From positions 5,362-69,361 of the forward strand of contig PTKS01000009.1 of assembly GCA_002937855.1 (NCBI GenBank): DNA of 64,000 nucleotides, read 5' to 3'. The notes below the pieces were generated by a model, which saw only the letters and a program-made list of their open reading frames with translations, had not been told where the DNA came from and searched no databases. The translations under genes were made by a program, and so were the position numbers. The DNA comes from Alphaproteobacteria bacterium MarineAlpha5_Bin12 (GTDB taxonomy: Bacteria > Pseudomonadota > Alphaproteobacteria > HIMB59 > GCA-002718135). Below, in pieces: positions 37,975 to 59,748 of this stretch (the stretch's first letter is position 1; every line of letters begins with the position of its first letter).

Positions 37975-39780
37975 ATGAATGAAAAAAATAATAATAAAAA
38001 ATATTTAAATTCTCTTTTAATAAAATATAAAAAGGGAAATAAAAAAGAAGCAATTTCAGAATTAGAATATTATACTACAATAAACCCTAAAGATACTTTA
38101 GCTACATACAATCTTGGAGTAATGTACCAAGAAACAAATCAAATTACAAAATCAATTGAACAATACCTTAAAGTTATCAAAAAAGACAAAAAAAATTGGA
38201 AAGCTTATTTAAATTTAGGTTTACAATATTTTAAGAAAAAAGATTATCAAAAATCAAATGAATATTATTTCAATGTTTTAAAAGTAAATAAAGATTATCA
38301 ACCTGCTCTAAGAGATTTGGGAACAAATTATTTATTATTAAATAATTATAAAAAAGCTGACGAATACTTAAATCGATCAATAAGATTAAATCCTGTCGAC
38401 TACATATGTCTTAATTCTTTAGGGGTGGTAAAAATGAGATTAGATAAATCAGAAGATGCTAAAGATATATTTGAGAGAGCTATTTCAGTAAATAAAGATT
38501 ATTATACTAGTTATAATAATTTAGGGTTATATTATGACCGGATTGGTGAAAAAGAAAAAGCATTTAAAGAATATAAAAAATGTCTAAAAATAGAACCTAA
38601 TTATCCTAATGCATTAAATAATATTGGATTAATATATTATTATTATGAAAATAATGAAAAAGCTTTTGATTGTTTTTTTAAAGCTTTAAAAATTGACCCA
38701 GATATGATTGATATTTATTTCAATCTAGCACACACTTATTTTACTCTTAGAAAATTTGAGGAAGCTGAAAAATGGTTTAAAAAAGGTTTTAAGATGGATC
38801 CACATAATATAACTGGGCACTATAATTATTCATTCTATTTATTAGCCCTTCAACAATATAAAAAAGCCTGGATCGAATATGAATATAGATTAAAAAAACC
38901 ATTAGTAATCTTAAACGATTTGTCATATGAAAATATTAAAGAAAAGCTATGGAGTGGAGAAAAATTAACAAATCAAAAATTATTAGTTTTAAGAGAACAA
39001 GGTGCTGGAGATGAGATACTCTATAGTTCAATGTATCAAGATCTTGCTAATATAAATAAGAATGTAGTTTTTGAAACTGATCCTAGGTTAATCTCCTTAT
39101 TTAAAAGATCTTTCAAAATAAATTTTATAAAAGATAAATTCTATTCAAAAAATGATTTAGATAAATTCGACAAAATCATTTTTGCTGGAAGTTTAGGTAA
39201 ATTTTTTAGAAAAAATATTAATGAATTTCCTAAAAGGAAAAATTATTTAATATCCAATAAAGAAATAGTTAAAAAAATAAATACTAGATTGAATAAATTA
39301 AACAATAATAAAAAGATTGGTATTTCTTGGTTTAGCAAAAATAAAAGAATAGGTGGAGGAAAATCAATAAATTTAAACGAAATGAAACCAATTCTTGAAA
39401 CTAAAGGAGCAACATTTATAAATATGCAATATGATGATCATATAAAAGAAATTAATGATTTTAAAAACACAACTGGAATTGAAATTATTGATTTCAAAGA
39501 TATTGATAAATTTAATGATTTTGAAAGCCTAGCAGGCTTAATAGAGTCTTTGGATTTATTTATTACAGTAAGTAATACTACTGCTCATTTAGCAGCTGCC
39601 TTAGGAAAAGAAACTTGGGTAATGGCTCCAAAAAATGATTCTTTATTATTTTATTGGAATACCGGATCTGATAAAACACCATGGTACTCGAAAGTAAAAA
39701 TATTTCCAAAAATAAATAAATGGGATGAAACAATAGAATTAGTTAAATCAAATTTATCAAATTGGATGAAAAAGAATTAA
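37975..39780 (+). CDS. TPR-repeat protein with C-terminal GT9-like glycosyltransferase domain (paralog A)
   Basis: 601 aa. About 8 TPR units (Y..LG..Y....A...Y.kal.i.P), then EQGAGDEILYSSMY, FKRSF, AGSLGKFFR, GISW, NMQYD and VSNTTAHLAAALGKETWV. Confidence 0.7.
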   Translation: MNEKNNNKKYLNSLLIKYKKGNKKEAISELEYYTTINPKDTLATYNLGVMYQETNQITKSIEQYLKVIKKDKKNWKAYLNLGLQYFKKKDYQKSNEYYFNVLKVNKDYQPALRDLGTNYLLLNNYKKADEYLNRSIRLNPVDYICLNSLGVVKMRLDKSEDAKDIFERAISVNKDYYTSYNNLGLYYDRIGEKEKAFKEYKKCLKIEPNYPNALNNIGLIYYYYENNEKAFDCFFKALKIDPDMIDIYFNLAHTYFTLRKFEEAEKWFKKGFKMDPHNITGHYNYSFYLLALQQYKKAWIEYEYRLKKPLVILNDLSYENIKEKLWSGEKLTNQKLLVLREQGAGDEILYSSMYQDLANINKNVVFETDPRLISLFKRSFKINFIKDKFYSKNDLDKFDKIIFAGSLGKFFRKNINEFPKRKNYLISNKEIVKKINTRLNKLNNNKKIGISWFSKNKRIGGGKSINLNEMKPILETKGATFINMQYDDHIKEINDFKNTTGIEIIDFKDIDKFNDFESLAGLIESLDLFITVSNTTAHLAAALGKETWVMAPKNDSLLFYWNTGSDKTPWYSKVKIFPKINKWDETIELVKSNLSNWMKKN

Positions 39781-47355: not shown

Positions 47356-48792
47356 TTATAAAAAATTCTTTTCTTTTGAAACTACATCTGAAAGATTTTG
47401 ATTAAACTGAACGATTTTTAAATTTTTATACCAATCATTCTTCGATTTTTGATTTAAAATTGATTCATATTCTGAATGATAAAAGGCTAAACATTTTTTC
47501 CCTATCGCCCCAGCTAAATGAATGGTTACATTAGGAGATGTTACCACACAATCTAGAGTATGTATTAGTGCAATAGTTTCATCAATATCATTAAATAAAT
47601 CAAGATCATTTATTTTTAATATTTTGTTTTCATTTTTTAAATTAAATTCATCAAGATCTTTTGTTTCACCATATTGTAAATTGACAATAAGATAATTTTT
47701 ATCTTTAATTATTGATTTAAAATCTTTTAATTCAAAAGATTTATTATGTGCAAATCTAGAAGAACTTTTCCAAGACAAGCCTATTATTTTTTTAAAACTA
47801 TAATTTTTAAATAATAATTCATATTTTGAAACTTTTTCTAAATTAGGTTTTAAAAAAGATTTTGTCATAAAATCACTAGAATTTTTTCTAAAATATTTTC
47901 CTAAACTTCCAGCATATATAAACTCATACCCATTTCTTACAAGGTCTCTAATCCTATCATAATTATCAAGGTTTATATATTCGTGGTCGCCAAAACTTCT
48001 TTTAAAGATTGTATTTAATCGCGAATCTATTAGAAATTTTAGCTCAGTATGGCATTTCAATAAGTCATTATATATAGAGCTAAAAAGAATTTTATCGCCT
48101 ATTCCCTGCTCTGATACAACTACTAGTTTTTTGACACTTTTAATATCTTTATTTTTAAATAGGTTTTTTTCTATTATTGAAAATAATGTTCCCTTATTTT
48201 GGCCAGAATATATTCTGCTTTCAAAATAATCCCAGGCTTCGGAGTATTTTTGTTGAGATAATAATATTAATCCCTTACCTTTTTTTATTTCAGGAATATT
48301 CGAATCAATAGATATGCCCTTTTCATAAAATTTCAAAGCTTCTGTAATCTTATTTTGCTTTTTATATAAATTACCAATATTTTTATAATAATGAGGATTT
48401 TGAGGTTTAAGTTCTAGGGCTTGTAAATAATATTTTTCAGCTTCAGAATAATTATAAGTTAATAGATATGAATATGCTAAGTTAACTATAGCTGGCTCAT
48501 TTTTATTATCTATATTTAATATCTTTTTGTAAGAGTTTTGAGCTTCAACAAACAAATTATTTTTAATCAGCGCCTCTGAGTATGCAAATAAATATTCAAT
48601 ACTTTGATTTAATGCTAGAGCTTTTTGAAAATATTCTATTGCTTCTTCAATATTATTAATTTTTAAATTTATAATTCCTAATAGATAAAAAGCTTTACTA
48701 TTGCTAGAGTCTGTGGTGATGATTTTTTTTAAATCTTTTTGTGCATTCTCATAATCTTGTTTATTAATTTTATTAATAATTTGATCTAACAT
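47356..48792 (-). CDS. TPR-repeat protein with C-terminal GT9-like glycosyltransferase domain (paralog B)
   Basis: 478 aa. TPR units, then EQGIGDKILFSSIY, FKRSF, AGSLGKYFR, GLSWKS, NLQYG and SPNVTIHLAGAIGKK. Confidence 0.7.
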   Translation of the reverse strand: MLDQIINKINKQDYENAQKDLKKIITTDSSNSKAFYLLGIINLKINNIEEAIEYFQKALALNQSIEYLFAYSEALIKNNLFVEAQNSYKKILNIDNKNEPAIVNLAYSYLLTYNYSEAEKYYLQALELKPQNPHYYKNIGNLYKKQNKITEALKFYEKGISIDSNIPEIKKGKGLILLSQQKYSEAWDYFESRIYSGQNKGTLFSIIEKNLFKNKDIKSVKKLVVVSEQGIGDKILFSSIYNDLLKCHTELKFLIDSRLNTIFKRSFGDHEYINLDNYDRIRDLVRNGYEFIYAGSLGKYFRKNSSDFMTKSFLKPNLEKVSKYELLFKNYSFKKIIGLSWKSSSRFAHNKSFELKDFKSIIKDKNYLIVNLQYGETKDLDEFNLKNENKILKINDLDLFNDIDETIALIHTLDCVVTSPNVTIHLAGAIGKKCLAFYHSEYESILNQKSKNDWYKNLKIVQFNQNLSDVVSKEKNFL

Positions 48793-48803
48793 TTTATTTT
48801 AAA

Positions 48804-49682
48804 TTATTTTTTTGAAACCATATATTTTTTAATTGATTTTAAATTCTTAAACTTATTCACTTTTGAAAATGCTATGACAGCTTGTTGTAAATTCATTTCT
48901 AAACCATTCATAAATTTTAATTTTCTTTTTTTTGATTCTTTTAACAAAATTGTTGGGTTTGGATCATAAATTACATCAAAAATTATTGTTGATTTTACAA
49001 TTTCTTTTAAAATGGATTTTTTTATTGGAGATTTTTTTTTCTGATCTCCCCAACCTATTGTTGTGCAGTTAATTATTATTGCATGTTGATTAATAAGCTT
49101 AGGCAAAAATTGCCATAAATTACTTTTCACATTTTTATATGATTTTGAAAATTTTAATTTTTTATGACTTCTTCCTATTAATGTTATATTTGCTGTATTA
49201 CCTATTTCTGAAGATAGATAAGCGACAACTGCTTTAGCAGTGCCCCCAGTTCCCAAAACCATAATTTTTTTATTTTTTATTGATCCAAATTTTTGCTTAA
49301 AAGAAATAAGCGCTCCTTCTCCATCAGTGTTTGTGCCAGCCAATTTATTTTTATCTCTAAAGATACAATTAACTGCTCCGATTTTTTTAGATTCTTTTGA
49401 GATTGATTTTCCTAACCATTTAGCAACATTTTCTTTATATGGAGCTGCTATAGCACCTCCTTCAAAATTTTTCATTTTTTGAAGATTTATTAACAGTTTA
49501 TTTAAGTTTTTAGATTTACAATCCAAAGGTATCATTCTAGTGATTTTATTCATCTTTTTATAAGTCTTGTTCCATAATTTTGGAGATCTAGCCCCTTCTG
49601 AAGGATTAGAGCCAATTATTGCACTAAATTTATTTATTTTTGGAATTTTAATTTTATTTTCAATTAGAGAATCTATTTTCAT
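48804..49682 (-). CDS. Shikimate/quinate dehydrogenase-like (AroE family, divergent) oxidoreductase
   Basis: GSNPSEGARSPKLWN, APYK (catalytic Lys), GTNTDGEG (catalytic Asp), GTGGTAKA and GLEMNLQQAV. It overlaps the upstream aldolase-like gene by 4 nt. Confidence 0.65.
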   Translation of the reverse strand: MKIDSLIENKIKIPKINKFSAIIGSNPSEGARSPKLWNKTYKKMNKITRMIPLDCKSKNLNKLLINLQKMKNFEGGAIAAPYKENVAKWLGKSISKESKKIGAVNCIFRDKNKLAGTNTDGEGALISFKQKFGSIKNKKIMVLGTGGTAKAVVAYLSSEIGNTANITLIGRSHKKLKFSKSYKNVKSNLWQFLPKLINQHAIIINCTTIGWGDQKKKSPIKKSILKEIVKSTIIFDVIYDPNPTILLKESKKRKLKFMNGLEMNLQQAVIAFSKVNKFKNLKSIKKYMVSKK

Positions 49683-50566
49683 AAAATATTTCTTCCTAAT
49701 GTATTAGCAACACTATTCATAGATTTACATAAAGATTCAAATTCTTGAAAGTCTATTGGCTGTAGGGGATCTACGGATGCATTAATTGGATCAGGGTGTA
49801 CTTCTAACATTATTCCATCTGCTCCTGAAGCAACGCTCGCTAAGGCCATAGAAGACACCCAAGGTCGCCAAAAAGTTGCATGCGAGGGATCTACTACTAC
49901 AGGTAAATGTGTTAGTTCTTGAGCTGCAGGTACAACTTGAAGATCAAGTAAAAATCTGGATGTGGATCTATGAGTATGGGGCGCTGATACACCCCTTTCA
50001 CACAATATAACCTTTTCATTGCCTTCAACTAAAATATATTCTGCAGCGCCTAACCAATCTCTTAATGAGGCTCCATAATGTCTTTTTAACATAATAGGTT
50101 TTCCAGTTTTTGCCACTGAAGTTAGAAAAGGATAGTTTTGCATATTTCTTGAACCAATTTGAATAATATCAGCAACATCAGAAACCAGATCTATAAATTT
50201 TTCCTCCATGACCTCAGTAATTATAGGAATTCCAGATATTTCTTTTGCATTTTTTAACCACTTGATGCCCTGTTCTCTTGTTTCAGTATACTTTGGTCCT
50301 CTATATGGAAAACTTAGAGGTTTAAATGCTCCTCCTCTTAAGAAATGAGCTCCAGACTTTTTTACACTTATCGCAGTATCTTTTATTAGCTCTTCACTTT
50401 CTACCATATTTGGACCTGCAAAAATTGGAATTAAGCTTCCACCAAACTCTACTCCAGATACATTGAATTTACTTTTATGATTTTTATTTTTTTTTGCAAC
50501 CAATGGAAATTTTGTTTTAAGATCTTCTTCAGAAATATCTTTACCTGGAAATTTATTTTCAGTCAT
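49679..50566 (-). CDS. Type I-beta DAHP synthase / KDO8P synthase-family PEP aldolase with atypical active-site residues
   Basis: Collinear with Thermotoga/Bacillus-type DAHPS: FAGPNMVES (canonical AGPCSVES), LRGGAFKPLSFPY (canonical RGGAFKPRTSPY), IQIGSRNMQN, LKR, ILCERG, DPSHA, MLEVHPDP. Confidence 0.75.
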   Translation of the reverse strand: MTENKFPGKDISEEDLKTKFPLVAKKNKNHKSKFNVSGVEFGGSLIPIFAGPNMVESEELIKDTAISVKKSGAHFLRGGAFKPLSFPYRGPKYTETREQGIKWLKNAKEISGIPIITEVMEEKFIDLVSDVADIIQIGSRNMQNYPFLTSVAKTGKPIMLKRHYGASLRDWLGAAEYILVEGNEKVILCERGVSAPHTHRSTSRFLLDLQVVPAAQELTHLPVVVDPSHATFWRPWVSSMALASVASGADGIMLEVHPDPINASVDPLQPIDFQEFESLCKSMNSVANTLGRNIL

Positions 50567-50585: not shown

Positions 50586-51653
50586 TTATATACCAAGTTT
50601 TTGTGAATTAATTTTATCATTTATTGATATCCAAGAATTATTTTCATAGCTAGCATACAAAGAATGTATTATTCTAGTTGTTATTGCAGCATCCTCAGAG
50701 TTTACAGGTGCGTCAATACTTCCATTATTTAAGCAGTCAATAACTTTTTGAAGATAAGGTCCGTGGCTCAATCCATAGCCATTTGGAACTTCTTGTGAAA
50801 ATTTATTAATAATTTCTTTTTCATTTTGATTTGAATTATTTGAATACCATTTTTCTATTTTATTAAGAGCTATTCCACCTACAGTAGCTATTGCTTTATC
50901 CCCCACAATAGAAATTGAAGCTTCCTGATCTTTTGGCCTTAGTCCTGTAGTTGCTTCAATAGTACCAAAAGATCCATTTTTAAATTTAATAATACCAACC
51001 ATGGTATCTTCTGCCTCAAGATTGTTTATTAAATTTCCACCTGTTGCACAAACTTCAGTTACAGGTCCACAAAGCCAGTTCATTACATCTACATGATGAA
51101 TTGCTTGTTGGTTAATTACTCCCCCATCTTGCTTCCATGTTCCATGCCATTCATCTTCATAATAATCCTGATATCTCGCCCATCTTAGACGGATGCTAGC
51201 GGTAATAATTTTACCAAAAGCACCTTTATTTAATTCATTTTTTAAAAATTGAATAGCGGGATTTAATCTATTTTGATAAACAACTCCTAACATCAAGTTC
51301 ATTTTTATTGATAAATCTTTTAAAGAGTCAGCTTCGGAAGGAGTCATGGCTATGGGCTTTTCAACTATAGTATTACATCCCATTTTAAGTGATTTTCTTA
51401 CATCATTAAAATGTTCACCTGATGGAGTTAAGACTAAAACTAAATTAGGTTTTTTTTTATTAATCATTTCAGATAAATCACTAAAAAAATCACAATTGAA
51501 ATTTTTTGAATAATTTTGTGCCTTAGATATTTCTTTATCTGCAACTCCTACGATCTCAAAGTTTTTTACATTACCAGAATTTAATATATTTTTATAATGT
51601 TGCGCTACCCTTCCACATCCTAAAATACCTATTTTAATATTTTTCATTTTCAA
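50586..51653 (-). CDS. Gfo/Idh/MocA family NAD(P)-dependent sugar oxidoreductase
   Basis: IKIGILGCGRVAQHY Rossmann N-terminus and the EKP motif. Confidence 0.85.
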   Translation of the reverse strand: MKMKNIKIGILGCGRVAQHYKNILNSGNVKNFEIVGVADKEISKAQNYSKNFNCDFFSDLSEMINKKKPNLVLVLTPSGEHFNDVRKSLKMGCNTIVEKPIAMTPSEADSLKDLSIKMNLMLGVVYQNRLNPAIQFLKNELNKGAFGKIITASIRLRWARYQDYYEDEWHGTWKQDGGVINQQAIHHVDVMNWLCGPVTEVCATGGNLINNLEAEDTMVGIIKFKNGSFGTIEATTGLRPKDQEASISIVGDKAIATVGGIALNKIEKWYSNNSNQNEKEIINKFSQEVPNGYGLSHGPYLQKVIDCLNNGSIDAPVNSEDAAITTRIIHSLYASYENNSWISINDKINSQKLGI

Positions 51654-53001
51654 GATTGGTCATATTTTTTACTATTTCTAAACTTGTTGCATCCTTTATT
51701 TCATATGATACCAATGGATCATTAATTTCATAAAATCCAAATTTTCCACTTCCAAGTGAATTATTGCGAAGAGGCATTGGCCTTGATACCAAACCTAAGC
51801 CAACAAGACCAATAAAAGATTTGCTTTTCTTCAATTTTTTTGGGACAAATCCTTCATTTACTATATGAGTTGATTCTTCTTCTTGAACAATTATACCCCT
51901 ATTTTCTTCAACAGCTGCTATTATTGTATCAAGTTCTTCATTAATAAGTTTTTCAATCATTTGATCAATTAGATTTGAATTTCTGAAAAAATATCCTTCT
52001 TGAAGAACTACTACTAGTTCTGGGCTTTGATTATTTTTTTCAATTTGATCAAGTGTGAATCTTACTACATCTAATATATCAACATAATTTTTTGAGAGTT
52101 CAGGTGGTCTTAAAAATGGTGCCTTAGCTCCAATTTTTTTTGCCAACTTTGAAGTGTTAGGGTTGTCTGTAGAAACAATTATTTCTTTGACATATTTGGA
52201 TTTTTTTATTGAATTAACAGTGTGTTCAACAAGAGTCTTGTTATTTACAAAAAAAGATTCTCCTTTTATTGGAATAATAGCTGTTATATTCATTTTATCT
52301 AATGATTCATTTTTTGGATAAGATACAAGGCCCTTAATTGATTCTAAAACATTTACAACATTGCTTGCTCTAGTTAAGTTTGAATCGTGATGAATACCAT
52401 GCCAATGAAAAACGCTTGCTTCGGGTTCATAAATAATATTGTAATTTGAATCGATTACTTGTTGACCCCATACTCTATCTTCAATGTTTGAGACTTTTTC
52501 GTCAAATGGAAATTTATTCCAAATTTCTCTCCTAAATGCACTGTTTGCGTTATGAAAAAATGAATCTTTTTTTTGTATTTTTTTATCTAGACCAAAAACA
52601 GTTAACAAATCTCTCTTATCTAAATCACTTGAATATGAAAATGGCTGTTGTCTTCCATAAACTCCAGCTACTTCTTCATTTTTTAGATCATTTATTAAAT
52701 TAGACAGCCAATTTTCATTTGTTGGAACACAATGTCCTGATAAACAAACTATATATTTCCCTTTAGATGCTTTGATGCCATCATTTATTGATTTACCGGG
52801 TAAAAATTCTTTTATTGTTATTATCTTAACTGAAAATTCTTTTGCTTTTTTTACTGTCATATCTGTTGATAAATTATCAACTATAATGACTTCTATATTC
52901 TTATGAGTCTGATTAAAAACAGATTGTAAGCATGACGAAATCCATCTTTCTTCATTTTTTGTTCTAATAATTATTGATACTAAGGGATTTTGAGAATTCA
53001 T
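51634..53001 (-). CDS. Fusion protein: N-terminal GT2 glycosyltransferase plus C-terminal cytidylyltransferase-like (CMP-sugar synthetase fold) domain
   Basis: Residues 1-230 carry VSIIIRTKNEERWI..VIIVDNLSTD (GT2). From Met237, MNITAIIPIKGES..STDN..FLRPPELS follows the NeuA/KdsB-type layout, but it lacks the ARGGSKG..KN motif. Confidence 0.7.
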   Translation of the reverse strand: MNSQNPLVSIIIRTKNEERWISSCLQSVFNQTHKNIEVIIVDNLSTDMTVKKAKEFSVKIITIKEFLPGKSINDGIKASKGKYIVCLSGHCVPTNENWLSNLINDLKNEEVAGVYGRQQPFSYSSDLDKRDLLTVFGLDKKIQKKDSFFHNANSAFRREIWNKFPFDEKVSNIEDRVWGQQVIDSNYNIIYEPEASVFHWHGIHHDSNLTRASNVVNVLESIKGLVSYPKNESLDKMNITAIIPIKGESFFVNNKTLVEHTVNSIKKSKYVKEIIVSTDNPNTSKLAKKIGAKAPFLRPPELSKNYVDILDVVRFTLDQIEKNNQSPELVVVLQEGYFFRNSNLIDQMIEKLINEELDTIIAAVEENRGIIVQEEESTHIVNEGFVPKKLKKSKSFIGLVGLGLVSRPMPLRNNSLGSGKFGFYEINDPLVSYEIKDATSLEIVKNMTNLENEKY

Positions 53002-53708
53002 AAGTTAAAATTTTTTATAATTAAATTAGCAAGTTTTAAATCATTTTTTGTATGGATATCAACAAACGAAAATTCATTTTTATGCATTATAATTTCAACT
53101 CTATTACCTATTCTTTTTCCTTTACGCCATAAATAAGCTCTGCTTGCGCAACTCAACCCTGTATCTTCCCTTACAATTGACCTTCGTACTTGTCTAGATT
53201 GATATAGCGACATCCATTTTCTTAATCGAGTCCATTTTTTGTTTTTATTTTTTTCCCAAAAATTTTTGTGAGTTTCATATCCTACAAAAACACTTTCTAT
53301 CTTTGGTTTTCTTTTTAATATATTTACAGCTTTTTTAATCCAGCGATGATCTCTAAAAATATCAGTAGCTGTTAAAAATACAGCGATTTCGTATTTTTTA
53401 TTAAAAATTTTTTCATAACTTAAAATGGCGTGTTTTAGAGTTTCTTCAGTAGTAGATAAACTTCCTGAAATCTTTTTGGGTCTAAAAAATGGAACTTCAG
53501 CTCCATATTTTTTTGCAACTTTTGCAATTTTTTCATCGTCAGTTGAAACCAAAATTGTTCCTATAACTCCAGATTTAATTGCATGTTTAATAGGTCTAGA
53601 AATTAGAGGTTCTCCATCTATTTTTAATAAATTTTTCTTAGGCAATCCTTTTGATCCACCTCTTGCTGGTATAATGCAAATTACATCATCATAATTATTT
53701 TTTTTCAT
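52998..53708 (-). CDS. Acylneuraminate/ulosonate cytidylyltransferase (NeuA/KdsB superfamily)
   Basis: ICIIPARGGSKGLPKKN and STDD..FFRP motifs. Confidence 0.8.
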   Translation of the reverse strand: MKKNNYDDVICIIPARGGSKGLPKKNLLKIDGEPLISRPIKHAIKSGVIGTILVSTDDEKIAKVAKKYGAEVPFFRPKKISGSLSTTEETLKHAILSYEKIFNKKYEIAVFLTATDIFRDHRWIKKAVNILKRKPKIESVFVGYETHKNFWEKNKNKKWTRLRKWMSLYQSRQVRRSIVREDTGLSCASRAYLWRKGKRIGNRVEIIMHKNEFSFVDIHTKNDLKLANLIIKNFNL

Positions 53709-53741: not shown

Positions 53742-55076
53742 TTAAAACTTATTTCTAAGTCTTTTGATTATTTCAGAGAGAGTGTTGTTTAAATTTTTTT
53801 TAATATAAAATATCTTTAATTTATCATACCACTCACAATTTCTATTTTGTTTCTTAGAATACAAAAAATGTTCATTATCATCATGGATAATCTCCCAAGT
53901 TTCAGTGCCTAATGAACTAGCAAAATTGCTGTTGATATTTGCGACTGTGATTACTAAATCTAGATTTGATATTAATGAAGCTAAATCATCCAAATTATTA
54001 AATTTATCTAATTCTTGAATATCAATTATTTTATTTTTATTTTTAGAATTAAAATTATTTATTTCCTGTTTTACTTTACCGTATTGTAAATTAACAAAAC
54101 CAATATCTCTATTGTCTCTATTATTAATTAGTTTAGAGAAATCTTCCAATCTAAATGATTTTTTTAAAAATGATTTAGATCCAGATTTCCATGAGATTCC
54201 AATATATTTTTTTTTATTATATTTTAATAAAATATCTTGATATTTTTTTGATATTTTTTTGTCATCAGTAAGATATGGTTTATTTTTAAAATCTATTATA
54301 TTATTTCTAAAAAATTTTCCTAAACTTCCAGCATAAATAAATAAATATTTTTTTTTCACATAATAAAAAATTTTATTTAAATTAGATTCTAAAATAAAAT
54401 CTTTAAATTTAAAGCTTCTTTTAAATATTTTTAAAAGCCTATCATCTACGACTATTTTACACTCTGGATTTAATTTTATAAATTCTTTATACATTGAGCT
54501 AAATAAAATTTGGTCCCCAATACCCTGTTCTGGTACAATTATAATTTTCAAATTTTGTGGAACTAATTTTTTATTATAAATATTATTCTTTATAATTTTA
54601 TAAATATCAGTATTTGTATACTCAGCTAATATTCTATTATCATATAGTGCCCAACCATCTTTGTATAATTTCTTTTTTAAAAGTATATAAGATTTATTAA
54701 ATTTAAAATTAGGAATATTTGAATTAATTTTGATTGCATTATTATATGATCTTAAAGCCAAATTTAATTTACCAAATTTCTTATATAAATTACCTAAATT
54801 AAATTGTAAAAATTCATTATCTGGTTTGATTTTTATTGCTCGAAAAATATAATTTTTTGAATTTTTATAATCCTCTTTTAACATGTAGCAATAAGCTATA
54901 TTACTTAAAGATTGAATGTGATTCCTATCAATCAATAATAATTTTTTGTATGTTTCTATTGCCTCATCTATTTTATTTGATTCTAAACTTTTATTCCCTT
55001 GATCTAAAAGAGATTCAGGTGTTTTTTTAATTATATTTTTCTTTTTTGATACATTGATACCAATATTTGCATTCAT
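53742..55076 (-). CDS. TPR-repeat protein with C-terminal GT9-like glycosyltransferase domain (paralog C)
   Basis: 444 aa. TPR units, then EQGIGDQILFSSMY, FKRSF, AGSLGKFFR, GISWKS and NLQYG. The HLA(G/A)A motif is replaced by NSNFASSLG. Confidence 0.7.
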   Translation of the reverse strand: MNANIGINVSKKKNIIKKTPESLLDQGNKSLESNKIDEAIETYKKLLLIDRNHIQSLSNIAYCYMLKEDYKNSKNYIFRAIKIKPDNEFLQFNLGNLYKKFGKLNLALRSYNNAIKINSNIPNFKFNKSYILLKKKLYKDGWALYDNRILAEYTNTDIYKIIKNNIYNKKLVPQNLKIIIVPEQGIGDQILFSSMYKEFIKLNPECKIVVDDRLLKIFKRSFKFKDFILESNLNKIFYYVKKKYLFIYAGSLGKFFRNNIIDFKNKPYLTDDKKISKKYQDILLKYNKKKYIGISWKSGSKSFLKKSFRLEDFSKLINNRDNRDIGFVNLQYGKVKQEINNFNSKNKNKIIDIQELDKFNNLDDLASLISNLDLVITVANINSNFASSLGTETWEIIHDDNEHFLYSKKQNRNCEWYDKLKIFYIKKNLNNTLSEIIKRLRNKF

Positions 55077-55077
55077 T

Positions 55078-55632
55078 TTATTGCGGTTTCCAGTGTTTTA
55101 AGCACCTTGGTTCATATACGTCGGATGCTCCTACTTGTGTTCTTTCTCCACCTTTATTTTTTCTATAGGTTTTTGTAGCTTCTTGTCCACATATGTTACA
55201 AAAACCATATATTTTAGTTATTTTATCCGCAAGTCCAAGAAGTAATGATGAGGTTTCCCAAGGCTTACCTCTAGAATCTTGATCTAATCCAGCGCATACA
55301 ACATTGATTCCTGAATTTAGTAATTCATCAATGTTTTCTAAAGTTTCATCTGCTTTCATAAATTGAACTTCATCTAAAAACAATGTATCTAAATTTTCAG
55401 TATTAAAATCAAATCTTTTTCTAGCGTCAGTCCAATTTGCAATGGAATAACATTCATGTGTAATATTATTATGGGTAGATATTAGTTTTTCAGAATATCT
55501 ATTATCAATTATAGGTTTTAATACCAATATTTTTTTTTGTTGGTGTTTTACCCAGAGAATTTTTTTTAAAAGCTCACTGGTTTTTCCAGCAAACATCGCA
55601 CCAACAATAGTTTCAAGGGTTCCTCTTTGCAC
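55078..55632 (-). CDS. tdk: Thymidine kinase (TK1 type)
   Basis: GAMFAGKTSEL P-loop, FLDEVQF and a C-terminal Cys pair pattern CNICG...CLKH. Confidence 0.9.
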   Translation of the reverse strand: MQRGTLETIVGAMFAGKTSELLKKILWVKHQQKKILVLKPIIDNRYSEKLISTHNNITHECYSIANWTDARKRFDFNTENLDTLFLDEVQFMKADETLENIDELLNSGINVVCAGLDQDSRGKPWETSSLLLGLADKITKIYGFCNICGQEATKTYRKNKGGERTQVGASDVYEPRCLKHWKPQ

Positions 55633-55670: not shown

Positions 55671-56834
55671 TTATTTAAGTAATTCATCTAAAAATATTTT
55701 AATTTTTTGATAATTAATAGATTCTATACAACCTACGGGGTTATTTAAAAAGTATTTATAGCTTTTTTTTAAATTCCCTCTGTTTAATAAATGTATCTTT
55801 GTATTTTCAAATACTAATTTTTTTTCTTTTTTTAGTGAATAATAGCAACCATGTTCATTATTAAAATTTATAATATTCGTAAGTCCACAAGGCGCAGAAC
55901 AATAATTTGATTTAAAGTTAGAATTATAATAAGTAATGTTGCTATTTTCATATAATATTTTTTTTGAATCTACTGAAGTAGAAATTAAAATTCCTTTTTT
56001 GTTATAAATTTTTGATATATGCAATGGCCCAGAATCACAAAAAACACCAAACTCTATAGTTTTAATGTATTTGACTAAATCCTTTAAATTACTTGGATTA
56101 TAAACTTTACATTTATTTAAATTTTTAAGATTGCGAAAATGTTCAGTAGTTATTTGATCATTTCCTAATATTAAATCAACTTCATATTTTTTATTTATTA
56201 AGTGGCTAATTATATTATCAATTAAATTAATAGGTAAAGTTCTTATTGGTGAATTAGAAATAGGGAAAATGGAAATTCTTGAAATTTTTTTATTAGCAAA
56301 ATTTTTATTTAAAATTTTATTTTTAATTCTAAAAAAATTATTTATTGCTTCTTCAATATTTTCTCTTTCATATTTTTGTAATTTCAGTAAATTAATCTCA
56401 CTTGTGAAATGGAATATAGTGTCATATTTTTTTATCTGTGATTCACTTATAAAATCAGAATAAATATTATCTGCTTCTGTAAAGTGAGATAATATTTCAT
56501 GAGCGTTGGAACAAAAAGCAATTCCAATCTCTTTAAAAATTTTATTTAATTTAATATTTTTTATAGCTAAACCATACTCGATTGAGTCACCTATGCCTGG
56601 ATTTGGTGGAAGACAAAATAGTATTTTTTCTGATTTTGGTAAATATTTACTATGTTTTTCTATATTAATTTCTTTTAATAAATCTTGATTATTTTTTTTA
56701 TTAAGTATTTTCCAAATAGATGAGTTTTTAGAGAAGTATTTTGTATCTTTTTTAATATATTCTACATCACAATTTTTCAAATCTAATGATGAAGTTGAGC
56801 AGTTTTTATTTAATATAAAGCTAAAAAATGGCAT
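55671..56834 (-). CDS. GT9-like (heptosyltransferase-fold) glycosyltransferase
   Basis: PPNPGIGDSIEYG N-terminal motif and VFCDSGPLHISK C-terminal motif. Confidence 0.55.
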   Translation of the reverse strand: MPFFSFILNKNCSTSSLDLKNCDVEYIKKDTKYFSKNSSIWKILNKKNNQDLLKEINIEKHSKYLPKSEKILFCLPPNPGIGDSIEYGLAIKNIKLNKIFKEIGIAFCSNAHEILSHFTEADNIYSDFISESQIKKYDTIFHFTSEINLLKLQKYERENIEEAINNFFRIKNKILNKNFANKKISRISIFPISNSPIRTLPINLIDNIISHLINKKYEVDLILGNDQITTEHFRNLKNLNKCKVYNPSNLKDLVKYIKTIEFGVFCDSGPLHISKIYNKKGILISTSVDSKKILYENSNITYYNSNFKSNYCSAPCGLTNIINFNNEHGCYYSLKKEKKLVFENTKIHLLNRGNLKKSYKYFLNNPVGCIESINYQKIKIFLDELLK

Positions 56835-56888: not shown

Positions 56889-58178
56889 ATGACCGATGGT
56901 ATTAATTCAAGAATTGTTATAGTAAAAATACTTAAAAAGATAAAAGAATCAAGAATTAATATTGATCAATGTTTTGAAAAAGAATTAAAAAAAATAAATT
57001 TATCAATAAAAGATAAAAAATATATTTATAATGTTGTAATAACAACAATAAAAAATATCAATTCTATTGACCAAATATTAAAAAATTTTACTAAAAGTGT
57101 TAATAAAAAAGATGTATCTTATTTTTTTATAATAAGTGCAATATCACAAATATTTATTTTAAATCAAAAAGAATATGCAGTAATTAATTCAACTTGCGAA
57201 GCATATAAAAGACTAAATAAAAAAAAGTTAAACTTTATTAATGGGCTTCTTAGAAATATTACTAGAAATAAATCATTTATAAATATAGATAAGCTAAATA
57301 AATCTTTACATCCTATATGGTTTAAAAATATTTTAAAAGAATTGCCAACAAGTAAAAGAAAGGTCATCTATAAATCAATTACAAAAAGACCTCTAATAAA
57401 TTTAGTTTTTAAGAATAATAAAAAATTGAATATAGTTAAACAAAAATTTTTAGAAACATCTAAAAATAGTTTAGCTTTATCTGAATTTATAGATTTAAAA
57501 AAAATATCAGGTTACAATGAGGGTCTGTGGTGGGTTCAAGATTTTGCATCTACTATTCCAGTTAAATTAATTCCGAATTTAAAAAATCAAAATATATTGG
57601 ATATGTGTGCGGCACCAGGAGGCAAAACTTTTCAACTATTAAATAGTGGTGCTAGGGTAACATCTTGTGATATTTCTATTAATAGAGTTAAATTGTTAAA
57701 AGAGAATGCACGTAGATTACAATATAATTTAAATATAATTAATATGGACGCTTTAAAAATATTAGAAAATAAATTTTTTGATACAGTTTTAATTGACGCA
57801 CCTTGCAGCTCTATTGGAACAATTAGAAAAAATCCTGAAATTCTCTATAGAAATAGCGGCCCAAATTTTGAATTTTATTTAGATTTACAATATAAATTAC
57901 TAGAAAAAGCAAAAAAATTGTTAAAAATTAATGGGACTCTAATATTTGCAGTTTGTTCATTTAATAAAAAAGAAGGTGTAAAACAGATAGAAAAATTTTT
58001 GTTAAAAAATAAGAATTTTCAAATAAATCCTATAATTAAAAGTGAATCAAAGGGTTTTAAAAAATTAGTTACTAAAGAAGGTTTTTTTCAATCATATCCT
58101 GATGATTTAATTGAAATTGGTGGTATTGATGGGTTTTTTATAGCAAGGTTAATTAAAAAAAATGATAATGCTTTATAA
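56889..58178 (+). CDS. rsmB: 16S rRNA (cytosine-C5)-methyltransferase RsmB/Sun
   Basis: DMCAAPGGKT SAM motif and DAPCSSIGTIRKNPE catalytic motif. Confidence 0.85.
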   Translation: MTDGINSRIVIVKILKKIKESRINIDQCFEKELKKINLSIKDKKYIYNVVITTIKNINSIDQILKNFTKSVNKKDVSYFFIISAISQIFILNQKEYAVINSTCEAYKRLNKKKLNFINGLLRNITRNKSFINIDKLNKSLHPIWFKNILKELPTSKRKVIYKSITKRPLINLVFKNNKKLNIVKQKFLETSKNSLALSEFIDLKKISGYNEGLWWVQDFASTIPVKLIPNLKNQNILDMCAAPGGKTFQLLNSGARVTSCDISINRVKLLKENARRLQYNLNIINMDALKILENKFFDTVLIDAPCSSIGTIRKNPEILYRNSGPNFEFYLDLQYKLLEKAKKLLKINGTLIFAVCSFNKKEGVKQIEKFLLKNKNFQINPIIKSESKGFKKLVTKEGFFQSYPDDLIEIGGIDGFFIARLIKKNDNAL

Positions 58179-59748
58179 AATTATTAAATATTTAGTTATT
58201 AAAAATTTTTTATACAAAATATATTTATTAATACGAACTAAGAAAGAATTTGAAGGAATTCAAAACTTTAATATTGTTCCTACTAAAAAAAAATCTCTTA
58301 ATAGTCTTTTAAAAATTAATGAAGATTATTTTTCTTCTAATCCTGAAAATAAAATACCCATAGAAATGCACAGTTTTGATTGGTTAAATGATTTTAAAAA
58401 AACAGGTGGTATCAATTTACTAAAAAAATCAAGACACTTAATTTTGGATTGGAAACACTGTGACTTTAACTTGTCTTCAAATGTATGGAATGAATTGTTG
58501 ATAGCTAAAAGAATTATTAATTTATCTACAAATTTTGACTACTATGGCACAACTGCAAGTAAAGAATTCAAAACTATTGTTACAAATTTAATTTTTTTTC
58601 ATTACAAAAATTTACTATTCCTTAAAAATTTCTATCTTGAAAAACATGATATCGACTTGGAAGTATCAAAAGCATTATTATTAACGTCTAGTTTTTTTGG
58701 AAAAAAAAAGGATTTTTTTAAATTAATAAATTTTATAAAAAAACAAACTATACATCAAATTAATAAGGATGGATTTCATAAAAGTATTAATATTTTTGAA
58801 CAAGCGAAGTTTATTAACAATTTAATAGAAATAAAAAATATATTACTTTTTAATAAATATAATAATTGGTCTGGTATAGATAATATAATTGAAGAAATGA
58901 CATCAGTTTTAAAAAATTTTTTTCATAAAGATCAGAGCTTGCCTTTATTTAACGCAACAAACAATAAGCAAATTGATTATGTTAGATACATAGCAAACTT
59001 ACAAAAGGATTTAAAAGTAAAAAAACTTTTTGAAATAAAGGATGGTATTGCGGTAGTTGAGGCATCAACAACAAAAATTTTTTTTGATATTACAAAGCCA
59101 AATAGCAAATTATTGAACAAAAGAATGCATTCTGGGACTTTAAGTTTTGAAATGAGTCATGATAATGAAAAAATAATTACAAATTGTGGATCTCCAGAAA
59201 AATATTTAGGAAAAAACCAAGTATATTTTCGATATTCAGCTGCACATTCTACCTTAACAATTAATAATACTAATATTAGCGAATTATCTGAAAAAAATGG
59301 GTATAGAAGAATACCAAAAAATATTAAAAATTCATCAGAAGAAAAAAAAGATTTTTATAAAATTACTGCATCTCATGATGGTTACAAAAATAATTATGGT
59401 GTTTTAATTAGAAGAACTCTAAAAATAAATAAGGACGGACTATTAATTTTGGGGTCCGATGAAATACTCAACTTAAAAAAAGTAAATAAAAACAATACTT
59501 TCGAAATAAGATTTCATTTAATGCCAGAAATTATTAGTGCTTTAACAAATAATGATGAACAAGTTATATTAAAATTAAAAAATGGTATGGCTTGGTATTT
59601 GAGGTCTGAAAACAATAAACTAAGAATTGATGAAAGTCTCTATATGGGAAGTGGAAGCCAGCCTCTTGCATCATCACAAATTGTTATTTATGGATCTATA
59701 AGTAAATTAAAGAATATAGTAAATTGGGAATTAAAAAAGGTTATATAA
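58162..59748 (+). CDS. Heparinase II/III-like family protein
   Basis: HSGTLSFEMSHDNEKIITNCGS...YSAAHSTLTINN resembles the Hepar_II_III C-terminal domain. It sits between rsmB and purH, as in many alphaproteobacteria. Confidence 0.65.
   Translation: MIMLYKIIKYLVIKNFLYKIYLLIRTKKEFEGIQNFNIVPTKKKSLNSLLKINEDYFSSNPENKIPIEMHSFDWLNDFKKTGGINLLKKSRHLILDWKHCDFNLSSNVWNELLIAKRIINLSTNFDYYGTTASKEFKTIVTNLIFFHYKNLLFLKNFYLEKHDIDLEVSKALLLTSSFFGKKKDFFKLINFIKKQTIHQINKDGFHKSINIFEQAKFINNLIEIKNILLFNKYNNWSGIDNIIEEMTSVLKNFFHKDQSLPLFNATNNKQIDYVRYIANLQKDLKVKKLFEIKDGIAVVEASTTKIFFDITKPNSKLLNKRMHSGTLSFEMSHDNEKIITNCGSPEKYLGKNQVYFRYSAAHSTLTINNTNISELSEKNGYRRIPKNIKNSSEEKKDFYKITASHDGYKNNYGVLIRRTLKINKDGLLILGSDEILNLKKVNKNNTFEIRFHLMPEIISALTNNDEQVILKLKNGMAWYLRSENNKLRIDESLYMGSGSQPLASSQIVIYGSISKLKNIVNWELKKVI

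What the first reader, a model, noticed from the sequence alone, without database searches (positions are those of the whole stretch)
49679..50566. DAHP-synthase-like enzyme with the metal-ligand Cys replaced by Asn and the KPRT phosphate-binding motif changed to KPLS
The protein is collinear with Thermotoga/Bacillus-type DAHPS, but it reads AGPNMVES (Asn53) where the family has AGPCSVES. A Cys-to-Asn swap at this position distinguishes metal-independent from metal-dependent KDO8P synthases. To my knowledge, characterised DAHPS are all metalloenzymes. The other ligand positions (DPSH, EVH, SVD) appear retained. The aldose-phosphate binding motif KPRT(S)P is KPLSFP here (Lys82-Pro-Leu-Ser), losing the Arg. 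Both changes point to altered chemistry or a different aldose substrate rather than standard E4P condensation.
Basis: partly seen in the sequence, partly recalled or inferred. Interest (0 to 1): 0.7.

Follow-up and report, generated by a model that had tools for sequence, protein, structure and literature searches.

The report
DAHP-synthase-derived sugar-acid synthase for glycosylation
This gene looks like the first enzyme of aromatic amino-acid synthesis, but it belongs to an undescribed, widespread offshoot that sits in a conserved gene set for making and attaching an activated acidic sugar to the cell surface or flagella, and the version in this abundant marine bacterium has probably lost its metal requirement.

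Summary
The ORF at 49679-50566, on the minus strand, encodes a 295-aa type Ibeta DAHP-synthase homologue. It has Asn53 in place of the metal-ligand Cys and KPLSFP in place of KPRTSP. His229, Glu255, Asp266 and all six PEP-binding residues are kept.

The two changes are not errors. All 120 closest relatives carry both. They are also separate events:
- Loss of the Arg, together with two 3-residue loop insertions (FPYR..., ERGxxxPHTH) and LKRH, defines a whole subfamily. Most of its members still have Cys.
- Cys->Asn marks one clade nested inside that subfamily.

The subfamily is almost always found next to the same partners: a shikimate-dehydrogenase-like reductase, a Gfo/Idh/MocA oxidoreductase, a PseF-like cytidylyltransferase and a GT2 protein. 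In Nitrospira and in one marine bacterium this set lies inside flagellar or Maf glycosylation loci. In this window it is flanked by two TPR + GT-B (FlmG-like architecture) proteins. None of 78 canonical DAHPS loci has two or more of these partners.

Best reading: it is the PEP-condensing synthase of an uncharacterised CMP-activated 3-deoxy-ulosonic-acid pathway, not the aromatic-pathway DAHPS. Its aldose pocket is remodelled, and in this clade catalysis is probably metal-independent. The substrate and product are unknown. I found no description of this subfamily in the literature searched.

The parts
49679..50566 (-). DAHPS-derived (type Ibeta lineage) PEP-condensing ulosonate synthase homologue, 295 aa, Asn-type member of the 'KPLTFP/PHTH' subfamily
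   Evidence: subfamily membership
50408..50410 (-). Codon AAT = Asn53, at the position of the metal-ligand Cys (AGPC -> AGPN)
   Evidence: present in 120 of 120 close relatives
50300..50323 (-). Lys82-Pro-Leu84-Ser-Phe-Pro-Tyr-Arg89. This is the KPRTSPYS motif with the E4P-phosphate Arg replaced by Leu, and it carries a subfamily-invariant Arg89. It is followed by a 3-residue loop insertion.
   Evidence: residue roles from PMC6362186
49967..49996 (-). Arg191-Gly-Val-Ser-Ala-Pro-His197-Thr-His199-Arg200. The ERG Arg that binds PEP phosphate is kept. The following IR-TFE is replaced by xxxPHTH, with a 3-residue insertion.
49769..49882 (-). The three retained metal-site residues: His229 (49880-49882), Glu255 (49802-49804), Asp266 (49769-49771)
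48804..49682 (-). Shikimate-dehydrogenase-family oxidoreductase. Its start overlaps the synthase stop by 4 nt. The catalytic Lys (AAPYK) and Asp (NTDG) are kept and the SxS substrate motif is changed. It scores below every AroE cutoff.
   Evidence: (second-best PDB hit is 5-ketofructose reductase 7COK)
50586..51653 (-). Gfo/Idh/MocA NAD(P) sugar oxidoreductase
   Evidence: co-occurs in 18 of 19 related loci
51634..53001 (-). GT2 glycosyltransferase fused to a cytidylyltransferase-like domain that lacks the RGGSKGxPxKN nucleotide loop
   Evidence: co-occurs in 19 of 19 related loci
52998..53708 (-). PseF/NeuA-like cytidylyltransferase (CTP_transf_3), the presumed CMP-ulosonate synthetase
   Evidence: PseF model 126.8 bits, KdsB models about 50-64 bits; co-occurs in 18 of 19 related loci
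47356..48792 (-). N-terminal TPR domain plus C-terminal GT-B (GT9-like) glycosyltransferase domain, the same architecture as FlmG; last gene of the string
   Evidence: FlmG architecture from PMC7591256
53742..55076 (-). Paralogue of the above (38% identity): TPR + GT9-like GT-B

Best explanation
The gene encodes the PEP-dependent aldol-type synthase of a conserved cassette. The cassette makes a cytidine-activated 3-deoxy-2-ulosonic (sialic/Kdo-like) acid sugar and hands it to glycosyltransferases that decorate a surface structure.

Proposed steps (all inferred):
1. The enzyme condenses PEP with an aldose that is not bound through the canonical E4P phosphate clamp. The PEP half-site is intact and the aldose half-site is rebuilt.
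2. The two ring oxidoreductases (SDH-like, Gfo/Idh/MocA) tailor the substrate or the product.
3. The PseF-like enzyme makes the CMP-sugar.
4. TPR+GT-B proteins (here) or Maf (in flagellates) transfer it.

In the clade to which this gene belongs, Asn has replaced Cys plus metal, as in non-metallo KDO8P synthases. Catalysis is therefore probably metal-independent.

What is shown: homology, residue replacements, subfamily structure and gene association. What is inferred: the reaction, the metal independence, and the order and roles of the partner enzymes.
For: (1) PEP site intact, aldose site rebuilt. PEP residues Arg77, Lys82, Ser139, Arg140, Lys161 and Arg191 are conserved, and three of the four metal-site residues are kept. 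The E4P-binding Arg of KPRT is Leu, and two adjacent loops carry conserved insertions.

(2) A distinct subfamily. It is monophyletic in an NJ tree (72% bootstrap). The Asn forms are one nested clade (76%). The subfamily scores 220-311 bits on TIGR01361, against 385-406 bits for canonical enzymes.

(3) Tight operon in the window. Gene gaps are -20 to +33 nt, in the order TPR-GT / CTP_transf_3 / GT2-CTP-like / Gfo / synthase / SDH-like / TPR-GT.

(4) The same partners in other lineages:
- 18-19 of 19 related metagenome loci with at least 5 kb on both sides
- an Acidobacteriota MAG, inside a Wzx/GT4 polysaccharide cluster
- an Ilumatobacteraceae MAG
- a 67% GC contig
- the Nitrospira sp. Kam-Ns4a chromosome, next to FlgK/FlgL/FliW and a Maf (PF01973)-TPR protein
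- between FliP and MotB/CheZ in a 51% GC marine contig

(5) Control. None of 78 canonical Ibeta DAHPS loci (1.17 Mb) has a cytidylyltransferase or two or more partners.

(6) No aro genes other than the SDH-like one in any of these contexts. Canonical Cys/KPRTSP enzymes exist in Nitrospira, Acidobacteriota and Acidimicrobiia lineages.

(7) Precedents. The Cys->Asn swap is the determinant of metal independence in KDO8PS (PMC3052366). Here it co-varies with changes near the Asp loop (position 270) and at ligand position 255. An SDH-family enzyme acting on a keto-sugar exists (7COK).

(8) Strong constraint. The synthase has a median 77% identity across loci whose partner genes are 44-52% identical.
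Against: - No enzymology, and the product is unknown.
- The protein still passes the NCBIfam DAHPS equivalog-domain cutoff (279 vs 267.75 bits). It also lies next to a shikimate-dehydrogenase homologue, which genuine aro operons do as well (6 of 78 controls).
- I could not check whether this genome has another DAHPS.
- No enzymes that would supply a free aldose (NDP-sugar hydrolase/epimerase) and no phosphatase are recognisable in the cassette, so the source of the substrate is unexplained.
- Some cassettes also carry a NeuB-type synthase, so the division of labour between the two synthases is unclear.
- The bootstrap supports are moderate.
- The invariant Arg89 could rebuild a phosphate site.
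Confidence: 0.68

Rival explanations
1. It is the organism's ordinary DAH7P synthase for aromatic amino-acid synthesis. It simply tolerates Asn and Leu at these positions, and the adjacent gene is its AroE.
For: It passes the TIGR01361 cutoff (279.1 vs 267.75 bits). Databases name it 3-deoxy-7-phosphoheptulonate synthase. It is adjacent to an SDH-family gene. All PEP residues are intact.
Against: - The E4P-phosphate Arg is lost across the whole subfamily.
- The SDH-like partner scores below every AroE cutoff (best 168 vs 248 bits) and has a changed substrate motif.
- No aroB/D/K/A/C genes are nearby.
- It always travels with cytidylyltransferase, GT2 and Gfo genes, and sits in flagellar or polysaccharide loci. 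Canonical loci never show this.
- Lineages that hold cassette copies also have canonical KPRTSP enzymes.
Confidence: 0.08
2. It serves the glycan cassette but keeps near-standard chemistry. It condenses PEP with a phosphorylated central-metabolism aldose (E4P, R5P/A5P or GAP). The phosphate is held by relocated residues (Arg89, Arg234, His163/197/199), and the sugar phosphate is later dephosphorylated by an unlinked phosphatase.
For: Phosphorylated aldoses need no supply enzymes, which fits the small cassette. Arg89 is invariant and sits in the same beta2-alpha2 loop, and Thr/Ser85 of KPxT is kept. From my own knowledge, not checked here, P. furiosus Ibeta DAH7PS is known to accept C5 aldose phosphates.
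Against: No phosphatase (HAD/KdsC-like) appears in any of the contexts examined. The cytidylyltransferase is closer to the PseF/NeuA type, which acts on nonulosonic acids made from non-phosphorylated sugars, than to KdsB. There is no direct evidence either way.
Confidence: 0.2
3. It is a decayed or non-catalytic paralogue: a pseudoenzyme or binding protein.
For: It lacks two residues considered essential in canonical DAHPS.
Against: The reading frame is intact and has an RBS. It has 72-86% identity across loci whose neighbours have diverged to 32-70%. Sixty-seven columns are invariant across 68 sequences, including every PEP ligand. Non-metallo KDO8PS is a precedent for an active Asn form.
Confidence: 0.03

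Closest known systems
Type Ibeta DAH7P synthase, unregulated core-only form (A. pernix 1VS1, P. furiosus 1ZCO, T. maritima 1RZM catalytic domain)
   Same: The same (beta/alpha)8 fold: TM 0.85-0.92, rmsd about 2 A, 37-42% identity. Collinear sequence. Identical PEP-binding residues and the same His/Glu/Asp of the metal site. No regulatory domain.
   Different: - Cys->Asn and KPRTSP->KPL(S/T)FP.
- Two 3-residue loop insertions, LKRG->LKRH, and a conserved N-terminal KDIxxxDL motif.
- About 100 bits lower on DAHPS models.
- Gene neighbours are a CMP-sugar/glycosyltransferase set, not aromatic-pathway genes.
Non-metallo KDO8P synthase (E. coli KdsA 1D9E, N. meningitidis)
   Same: The same superfamily and fold (TM 0.72-0.80). 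Asn replaces the metal Cys while His/Glu/Asp stay. The family is split into Cys (metal) and Asn (non-metal) forms (PMC3052366). The product is a sugar acid that is CMP-activated for a surface glycan.
   Different: Only 23-26% identity. It scores 68-91 bits on KDO8PS models whose cutoffs are 242-457. It has KPLSFP rather than KANRS, and the residue before Asn is Pro, not Met. In the tree it groups inside the DAH7PS Ibeta radiation, not with KDO8PS.
NeuB/PseI/LegI nonulosonic-acid synthases and their flagellin/surface glycosylation loci (Pse/Leg pathways with PseF/NeuA, and Maf or FlmG transferases)
   Same: The same logic: a PEP-condensing synthase, a CTP_transf_3 cytidylyltransferase, and a Maf or TPR+GT-B transferase, often in flagellar loci. 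NeuB uses a non-phosphorylated aldose, which would fit the lost phosphate clamp.
   Different: The synthase belongs to a different family. The weak Pfam NeuB hit (30 bits) is no stronger than in canonical DAHPS, and there is no SAF domain. The usual dehydratase, aminotransferase, acetyltransferase and NDP-sugar hydrolase steps are absent. In their place are an SDH-like and a Gfo/Idh/MocA oxidoreductase. A true NeuB is an optional extra in some cassettes.

Membership tests
Type Ibeta DAH7P synthase (EC 2.5.1.54) | Sequence and fold homology to the DAHP_synth_1 (beta/alpha)8 catalytic domain | tested here: met
   Pfam PF00793 179.6 bits. PDB 1VS1 at E 5e-66. AF2 model against 1VS1: TM 0.85/0.92.
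Type Ibeta DAH7P synthase (EC 2.5.1.54) | Four metal ligands Cys-His-Glu-Asp | tested here: not met
   Asn53 replaces Cys. His229, Glu255 and Asp266 are present.
Type Ibeta DAH7P synthase (EC 2.5.1.54) | PEP-binding residues (Arg and Lys of LRGGAFK, GxR, LKR Lys, ERG Arg) | tested here: met
   Arg77, Lys82, Ser139/Arg140, Lys161 and Arg191 are all conserved and invariant in the subfamily.
Type Ibeta DAH7P synthase (EC 2.5.1.54) | KPR(T/S) motif whose Arg and Thr bind the E4P phosphate | tested here: not met
   The motif is KPLS here. It is KPL(T/S) in 120 of 120 close relatives and KP(L/M)T in 119 of 119 Cys-type relatives. Residue roles are from PMC6362186.
Type Ibeta DAH7P synthase (EC 2.5.1.54) | Curated model cutoffs | tested here: inconclusive
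   TIGR01361: 279.1 vs cutoff 267.75 (pass). NF006421: 321.1 vs 335 (fail). Canonical enzymes score 385-406 and 430-456 on these two models.
Type Ibeta DAH7P synthase (EC 2.5.1.54) | Functional link to the shikimate pathway (aro gene context, sole DAHPS of the genome) | tested here: inconclusive
   The context is a CMP-sugar/GT cassette, and no aro genes apart from an atypical SDH-like gene are present. The rest of the genome could not be searched for a second DAHPS.
Type Ibeta DAH7P synthase (EC 2.5.1.54) | Catalyses E4P + PEP -> DAH7P | not testable with these tools
   Needs an enzyme assay or complementation.
KDO8P synthase (EC 2.5.1.55) | KANRS A5P-binding motif and family-level sequence score | tested here: not met
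   The motif is KPLSFP. It scores 90.6 bits on TIGR01362 (cutoff 314) and 88.9 bits on NF003543 (cutoff 242). It groups outside the KDO8PS clade.
KDO8P synthase, non-metallo class (analogy only) | Asn at the metal-Cys position with His/Glu/Asp retained | tested here: met
   E. coli GGMNVLES; PMC3052366. This is a shared solution, not evidence of membership.
NeuB-type nonulosonic acid synthase | NeuB catalytic domain scoring as NeuB/PseI/LegI, plus a C-terminal SAF domain | tested here: not met
   PseI model 24.8 bits (cutoff 340). The Pfam NeuB hit of 30 bits is the same level as in canonical DAHPS (31-42 bits). There is no SAF domain.
CMP-ulosonic-acid glycosylation cassette (Pse/Leg/Kdo-like systems) | PEP-condensing synthase encoded with a CTP_transf_3 cytidylyltransferase | tested here: met
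   Seen in the window operon. CTP in 18 of 19 and GT2-CTP in 19 of 19 related loci. Also found in Nitrospira, Acidobacteriota and other contigs.
CMP-ulosonic-acid glycosylation cassette (Pse/Leg/Kdo-like systems) | Dedicated transferase nearby (Maf, FlmG-like TPR+GT-B, or polysaccharide GTs) | tested here: met
   Two TPR+GT9-like GT-B proteins flank the cassette. There is a Maf-domain protein in Nitrospira and GT4/Wzx genes in Acidobacteriota.
CMP-ulosonic-acid glycosylation cassette (Pse/Leg/Kdo-like systems) | Recognisable supply route for the aldose (NDP-sugar dehydratase, aminotransferase, acetyltransferase and hydrolase, or isomerase plus phosphatase as for Kdo) | tested here: not met
   None is present in the core cassette. 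Only the SDH-like and Gfo/Idh/MocA oxidoreductases are there. Tailoring enzymes appear only in some variants.
CMP-ulosonic-acid glycosylation cassette (Pse/Leg/Kdo-like systems) | A CMP-sugar product and a glycan carrying it | not testable with these tools
   Needs LC-MS of the CMP-sugar and glycoprotein or glycan analysis.

The most novel reading that the evidence does not exclude
A third functional branch of the DAH7PS/KDO8PS family, previously unrecognised, makes a so far unknown ulosonic acid, possibly from a non-phosphorylated aldose. The sugar is CMP-activated and attached to flagellins (Nitrospira and marine flagellates) or to other surface proteins or glycans (non-motile Pelagibacteraceae, through FlmG-like TPR-GT-B enzymes). 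Within this branch nature has repeated the Cys->Asn metal-to-no-metal switch, giving the first naturally metal-independent enzyme of the DAH7PS lineage.
Probability: 0.4. Interest if true: 0.8.

Novelty: new variant of a known kind. Interest (0 to 1): 0.64.

Why it matters
- **Annotation.** If the reading is right, thousands of database entries named "3-deoxy-7-phosphoheptulonate synthase" are mis-assigned. They come from Pelagibacteraceae, Nitrospira, Acidobacteriota, Actinobacteria and others. Metabolic reconstructions that count them as the entry to aromatic biosynthesis would be wrong.
- **Biology.** It points to an uncharacterised acidic sugar on the surface of one of the ocean's most abundant bacterial groups and on the flagella of nitrifiers. 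This bears on phage and grazer recognition and on the make-up of marine dissolved organic matter.
- **Enzymology.** Close relatives that differ in Cys vs Asn (plus a few co-varying positions) provide a natural experiment on the role of the metal in the DAH7PS lineage. It parallels the long-studied KDO8PS case. The rebuilt aldose pocket shows how substrate specificity is rewired on an unchanged PEP site.

Tried and rejected
1. **NeuB-like features.** I asked whether the Pfam NeuB hit marks the protein as NeuB-like. It does not: canonical Ibeta DAHPS give equal or higher NeuB scores.
2. **A NeuB gene in the window.** None was found by tblastn. NeuB is only an optional neighbour elsewhere (7 of 80 loci).
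3. **Genome-collection scan with a subfamily alignment.** The patterns also matched canonical DAHPS. Only 2 of the 80 loci returned (L008, L009) were subfamily members. The other 78 were reused as the negative control.
4. **Pfam and PDB sequence searches of the C-terminal domain of the TPR proteins.** These gave nothing. The domain was resolved only by AF2 plus Foldseek, as GT9-like GT-B.
5. **Literature searches.** I looked for any link between DAHP synthase and flagellin glycosylation, nonulosonic acids, heptulosonic acid cytidylyltransferases, the ela genes of 8-epilegionaminic acid, or Pelagibacter shikimate genes. Nothing relevant was found.
6. **A second DAHPS in the same genome.** I could not establish whether one exists.
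7. **Active-site geometry.** Model coordinates are not exposed by the tools, so I could not measure which new residues line the aldose pocket.
Full report
**1. The observation**

The coordinates 49679-50566 delimit a real ORF, but it lies on the minus strand. It has an ATG start preceded by AAGGAG and encodes 295 aa. It is a homologue of type Ibeta (Thermotoga/Bacillus/Pyrococcus-type) DAH7P synthase. Pfam DAHP_synth_1 scores 179.6 bits, and the best solved relatives are A. pernix 1VS1 (E 5e-66) and P. furiosus 1ZCO.

In those HMMER alignments there is no gap between the two motifs in question. AGPNMVES lies under AGPCSVES, and KPLSFPY lies under KPRTSPY. MAFFT gives the same register. An AlphaFold2 model (pLDDT 91.6, pTM 0.90) superposes on 1VS1 with TM 0.85/0.92 at 2.1 A.

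Asn53 is an AAT codon (50408-50410), two substitutions away from any Cys codon. Leu84 is CTA.

I mapped the residue roles compiled for Ibeta enzymes in PMC6362186 onto the query:

| Role | Ibeta reference residues | Query residues |
|---|---|---|
| Metal ligands | C36, H206, E232, D243 | Asn53, His229, Glu255, Asp266 |
| PEP binding | R60, K65, S119, R120, K141, R171 | Arg77, Lys82, Ser139, Arg140, Lys161, Arg191 |
| E4P binding | R67, T68 | Leu84, Ser85 |

So the PEP half of the site is untouched. Three of the four metal residues stay, and the phosphate-clamping Arg is gone. All 120 nearest database relatives (75-99% identity, named Pelagibacteraceae where named) show AGPN and KPL[ST]FPY.

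**2.

The same alignments show further systematic differences from canonical enzymes:
- a 3-residue insertion after FPY with an invariant Arg89
- ERGIR---TFE replaced by ERGxxxPHTH
- LKRG replaced by LKRH
- DPSHxxGRR replaced by DPSHATF(W/K)R
- a conserved N-terminal KDI(S/T)xxDL motif

A search of 50%-identity representatives found proteins with this whole signature that still carry the metal Cys (P0121, P0125, P0134, P0129, P0132). It also found others with Asn (P0123, P0170). Of the listed relatives of P0121, 119 of 119 have AGPC together with KP(L/M)TFP, and 118 of them have the xHxH loop. They include the complete Nitrospira sp. Kam-Ns4a genome and Nitrospirota MAGs.

I built a neighbour-joining tree from 77 sequences and 278 columns, with 200 bootstraps, using PDB-verified KDO8PS sequences as an outside group. 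The tree recovers the subfamily as one clade (72%). All Asn forms fall in a single clade nested among the Cys forms (76%).

The two substitutions are therefore separate events. Loss of the Arg and the loop remodelling define the subfamily. Cys->Asn came later, in one branch that now spans organisms of 25-27% GC (SAR11-like), 51% GC (a flagellated marine bacterium) and 59% GC (Ilumatobacteraceae).

Positions that co-vary with the switch include 54 (Met/Ala), 255 (Glu in Asn forms, Asp in Cys forms) and 270 (Pro/Ala, four residues after the ligand Asp). This recalls the requirement in KDO8PS for extra changes in the Asp loop (PMC3052366).

On NCBIfam's DAHPS equivalog-domain model, canonical enzymes score 385-406 bits. 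Subfamily members score 220-311, straddling the 267.75 cutoff. This explains why pipelines name them DAHPS.

**3. Gene context**

In the window the gene lies in a tight minus-strand string (gaps -20 to +33 nt), in this order:
- TPR protein (53742-55076)
- PseF-like cytidylyltransferase (52998-53708)
- GT2 fused to a cytidylyltransferase-like domain (51634-53001)
- Gfo/Idh/MocA oxidoreductase (50586-51653)
- the synthase
- a shikimate-dehydrogenase-family protein (48804-49682)
- a second TPR protein (47356-48792)

The SDH-like protein keeps the catalytic Lys and Asp but scores below every AroE cutoff (best 168 vs 248 bits). Its SxS substrate motif is altered. Its second-best solved relative is 5-ketofructose reductase (7COK), an SDH-family enzyme that works on a keto-sugar.

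The C-terminal 308 residues of the TPR proteins have no Pfam or PDB sequence match. They model confidently (pLDDT 92.4) as a GT-B fold closest to GT9 heptosyltransferases: WaaF 1PSW at E 3.5e-8, then 3TOV, WaaC and TibC. TPR plus GT-B is the architecture of the flagellin glycosyltransferase FlmG (PMC7591256).

**4. The association is conserved, and specific**

Among 80 metagenome loci encoding 72-86% identical proteins, 19 have at least 5 kb on both sides. In those 19 the partners occur as follows: SDH-like 18, Gfo 18, GT2-CTP 19, cytidylyltransferase 18. Gene order varies, and some variants add radical-SAM/SPASM, aminotransferase, FMN-dehydrogenase, methyltransferase or NeuB genes.

Cys-type members show the same partners in four further settings:
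- a 67% GC contig: two CTP_transf_3, Gfo, synthase, SDH-like, NeuB+SAF, GT2
- an Acidobacteriota MAG, inside a Wzx/GT4/sulfotransferase polysaccharide cluster
- an Ilumatobacteraceae MAG
- the Nitrospira chromosome

In Nitrospira the set (Gfo, synthase, SDH-like, NeuB, GT2, two cytidylyltransferases) lies between FlgK/FlgL/CsrA/FliW and a 1174-aa protein with TPR, methyltransferase and MptE-like (PF01973, Maf) domains. That is a flagellin glycosylation island. A 78%-identical Asn-type gene lies with the same partners between FliP and MotB/CheZ.

As a control, I took the 78 canonical Cys/KPRTSP loci fetched in the same scan (1.17 Mb). Six have an SDH homologue, as expected for aro operons. One has a Gfo protein. 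None has a cytidylyltransferase or two or more partners. Canonical enzymes exist in Nitrospira, Nitrospirota, Acidobacteriota and Acidimicrobiia, so in those lineages the cassette copy is an additional paralogue.

**5. How it most likely works**

*Shown:* this is a DAH7PS-lineage barrel with an intact PEP site, a rebuilt aldose site and, in this clade, no metal Cys. It is encoded with enzymes that activate ulosonic acids with CMP and with glycosyltransferases.

*Inferred:*
- The enzyme condenses PEP with an aldose other than E4P bound in the canonical way, giving a 3-deoxy-2-ulosonic acid.
- The two NAD(P) oxidoreductases act on the pyranose ring of the substrate or product. An oxidation/reduction epimerisation is the simplest idea, because ulosonate pyranoses resemble quinate and shikimate.
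- The PseF-like enzyme makes the CMP-sugar.
- Maf, or the FlmG-like TPR-GT-B proteins, or polysaccharide GTs, transfer it.

Three points favour a non-phosphorylated aldose: the lost Arg clamp, the absence of any phosphatase in all contexts, and the cytidylyltransferase's greater similarity to PseF than to KdsB. On the other side, the invariant Arg89 and the lack of obvious aldose-supply enzymes keep a phosphorylated substrate in play. I give that rival 0.2.

Metal independence of the Asn form is inferred from the KDO8PS precedent only.

The housekeeping-DAHPS rival keeps about 0.08, because I could not search the rest of the genome. A pseudoenzyme is unlikely given the conservation: a median 77% identity, against 44-52% for the neighbours.

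**6. Comparison with known systems and novelty**

By descent this is a type Ibeta DAH7PS, but it fails two of that enzyme's defining features: the Cys ligand and the KPR(T/S) clamp. It shares the Asn solution with non-metallo KDO8PS but is not a KDO8PS, having no KANRS motif and scoring far below the cutoffs. Its operon logic matches NeuB-type nonulosonic-acid systems, but it is not a NeuB.

Ten full-text searches found no paper linking DAHP synthase homologues to flagellin glycosylation or CMP-sugar cassettes. Absence from this library is not proof of absence. I rate it a new variant of a known kind.

**7. Limits**

- No biochemistry was done.
- Tree supports are moderate.
- The product, the acceptor in non-flagellated Pelagibacteraceae and the role of co-occurring NeuB are unknown.
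- The coordinates of the model could not be inspected, so assigning the new His/Arg/Trp residues to the aldose pocket rests on their loop positions only.

Noticed in passing
window 37975-39780 (+): This is a third TPR + GT9-like protein (601 aa). Its C-terminal domain is 34% identical to that of the 478-aa TPR protein. The window therefore holds three paralogues of this FlmG-like architecture in a presumably non-flagellated, 27% GC genome, and the acceptor is unknown.
   Followed up: partly
window 51634-53001 (-), residues about 238-365: The cytidylyltransferase-like domain fused to GT2 lacks the nucleotide-binding loop: PIKGES--------FFVNNK against PARGGSKGLPKKNLLKIDG in the neighbouring enzyme. 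It may be a degenerate domain that binds a CMP-sugar rather than an active synthetase. In Nitrospira the GT2 and the two CTP_transf_3 are separate genes.
   Followed up: partly
subfamily alignment A3, query position 255: Cys-type members of the subfamily have Asp (LDVH) where canonical DAHPS and the Asn-type clade have the metal-ligand Glu (LEVH). I have no explanation for this.
   Followed up: no
L001 (51% GC) vs window (27% GC); L089-L168: The synthase is 78% identical between organisms of very different base composition. It is much more conserved (median 77%) than its cassette partners (44-52%). This suggests unusually strong constraint, horizontal spread of the cassette, or both.
   Followed up: partly
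L106 10899-12714; L166 10886-11818 and 13696-15695: Some SAR11-like cassettes insert extra genes next to the synthase: a radical-SAM/SPASM enzyme, a class I/II aminotransferase-like gene, a second Gfo-like protein, an FMN-dependent alpha-hydroxyacid dehydrogenase and a cytidylyltransferase-methyltransferase fusion. These are probably tailoring variants of the sugar.
   Followed up: partly
window 55078-55632 (-) and 55671-56834 (-): A thymidine kinase gene sits 1 nt upstream of the cassette, in the same orientation. Before it is a 387-aa ORF with only weak GT9 (E 1.3e-4) and STT3/PglB-core (E 2e-3) similarity. That ORF may be another glycosyltransferase of the island.
   Followed up: no
window 58162-59748 (+), 61593-62438 (+), 62442-63296 (-): There is a heparinase II/III-like protein and two sulfotransferase-domain proteins just beyond the cassette. 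Sulfotransferases also accompany the Acidobacteriota cassette. This hints at sulfated glycans.
   Followed up: no
L001 4976-6766 (+): In the flagellar-locus version, the gene after the SDH-like one encodes a 596-aa protein with no Pfam match and no similarity to the window's TPR-GT proteins. It is a candidate novel transferase.
   Followed up: no
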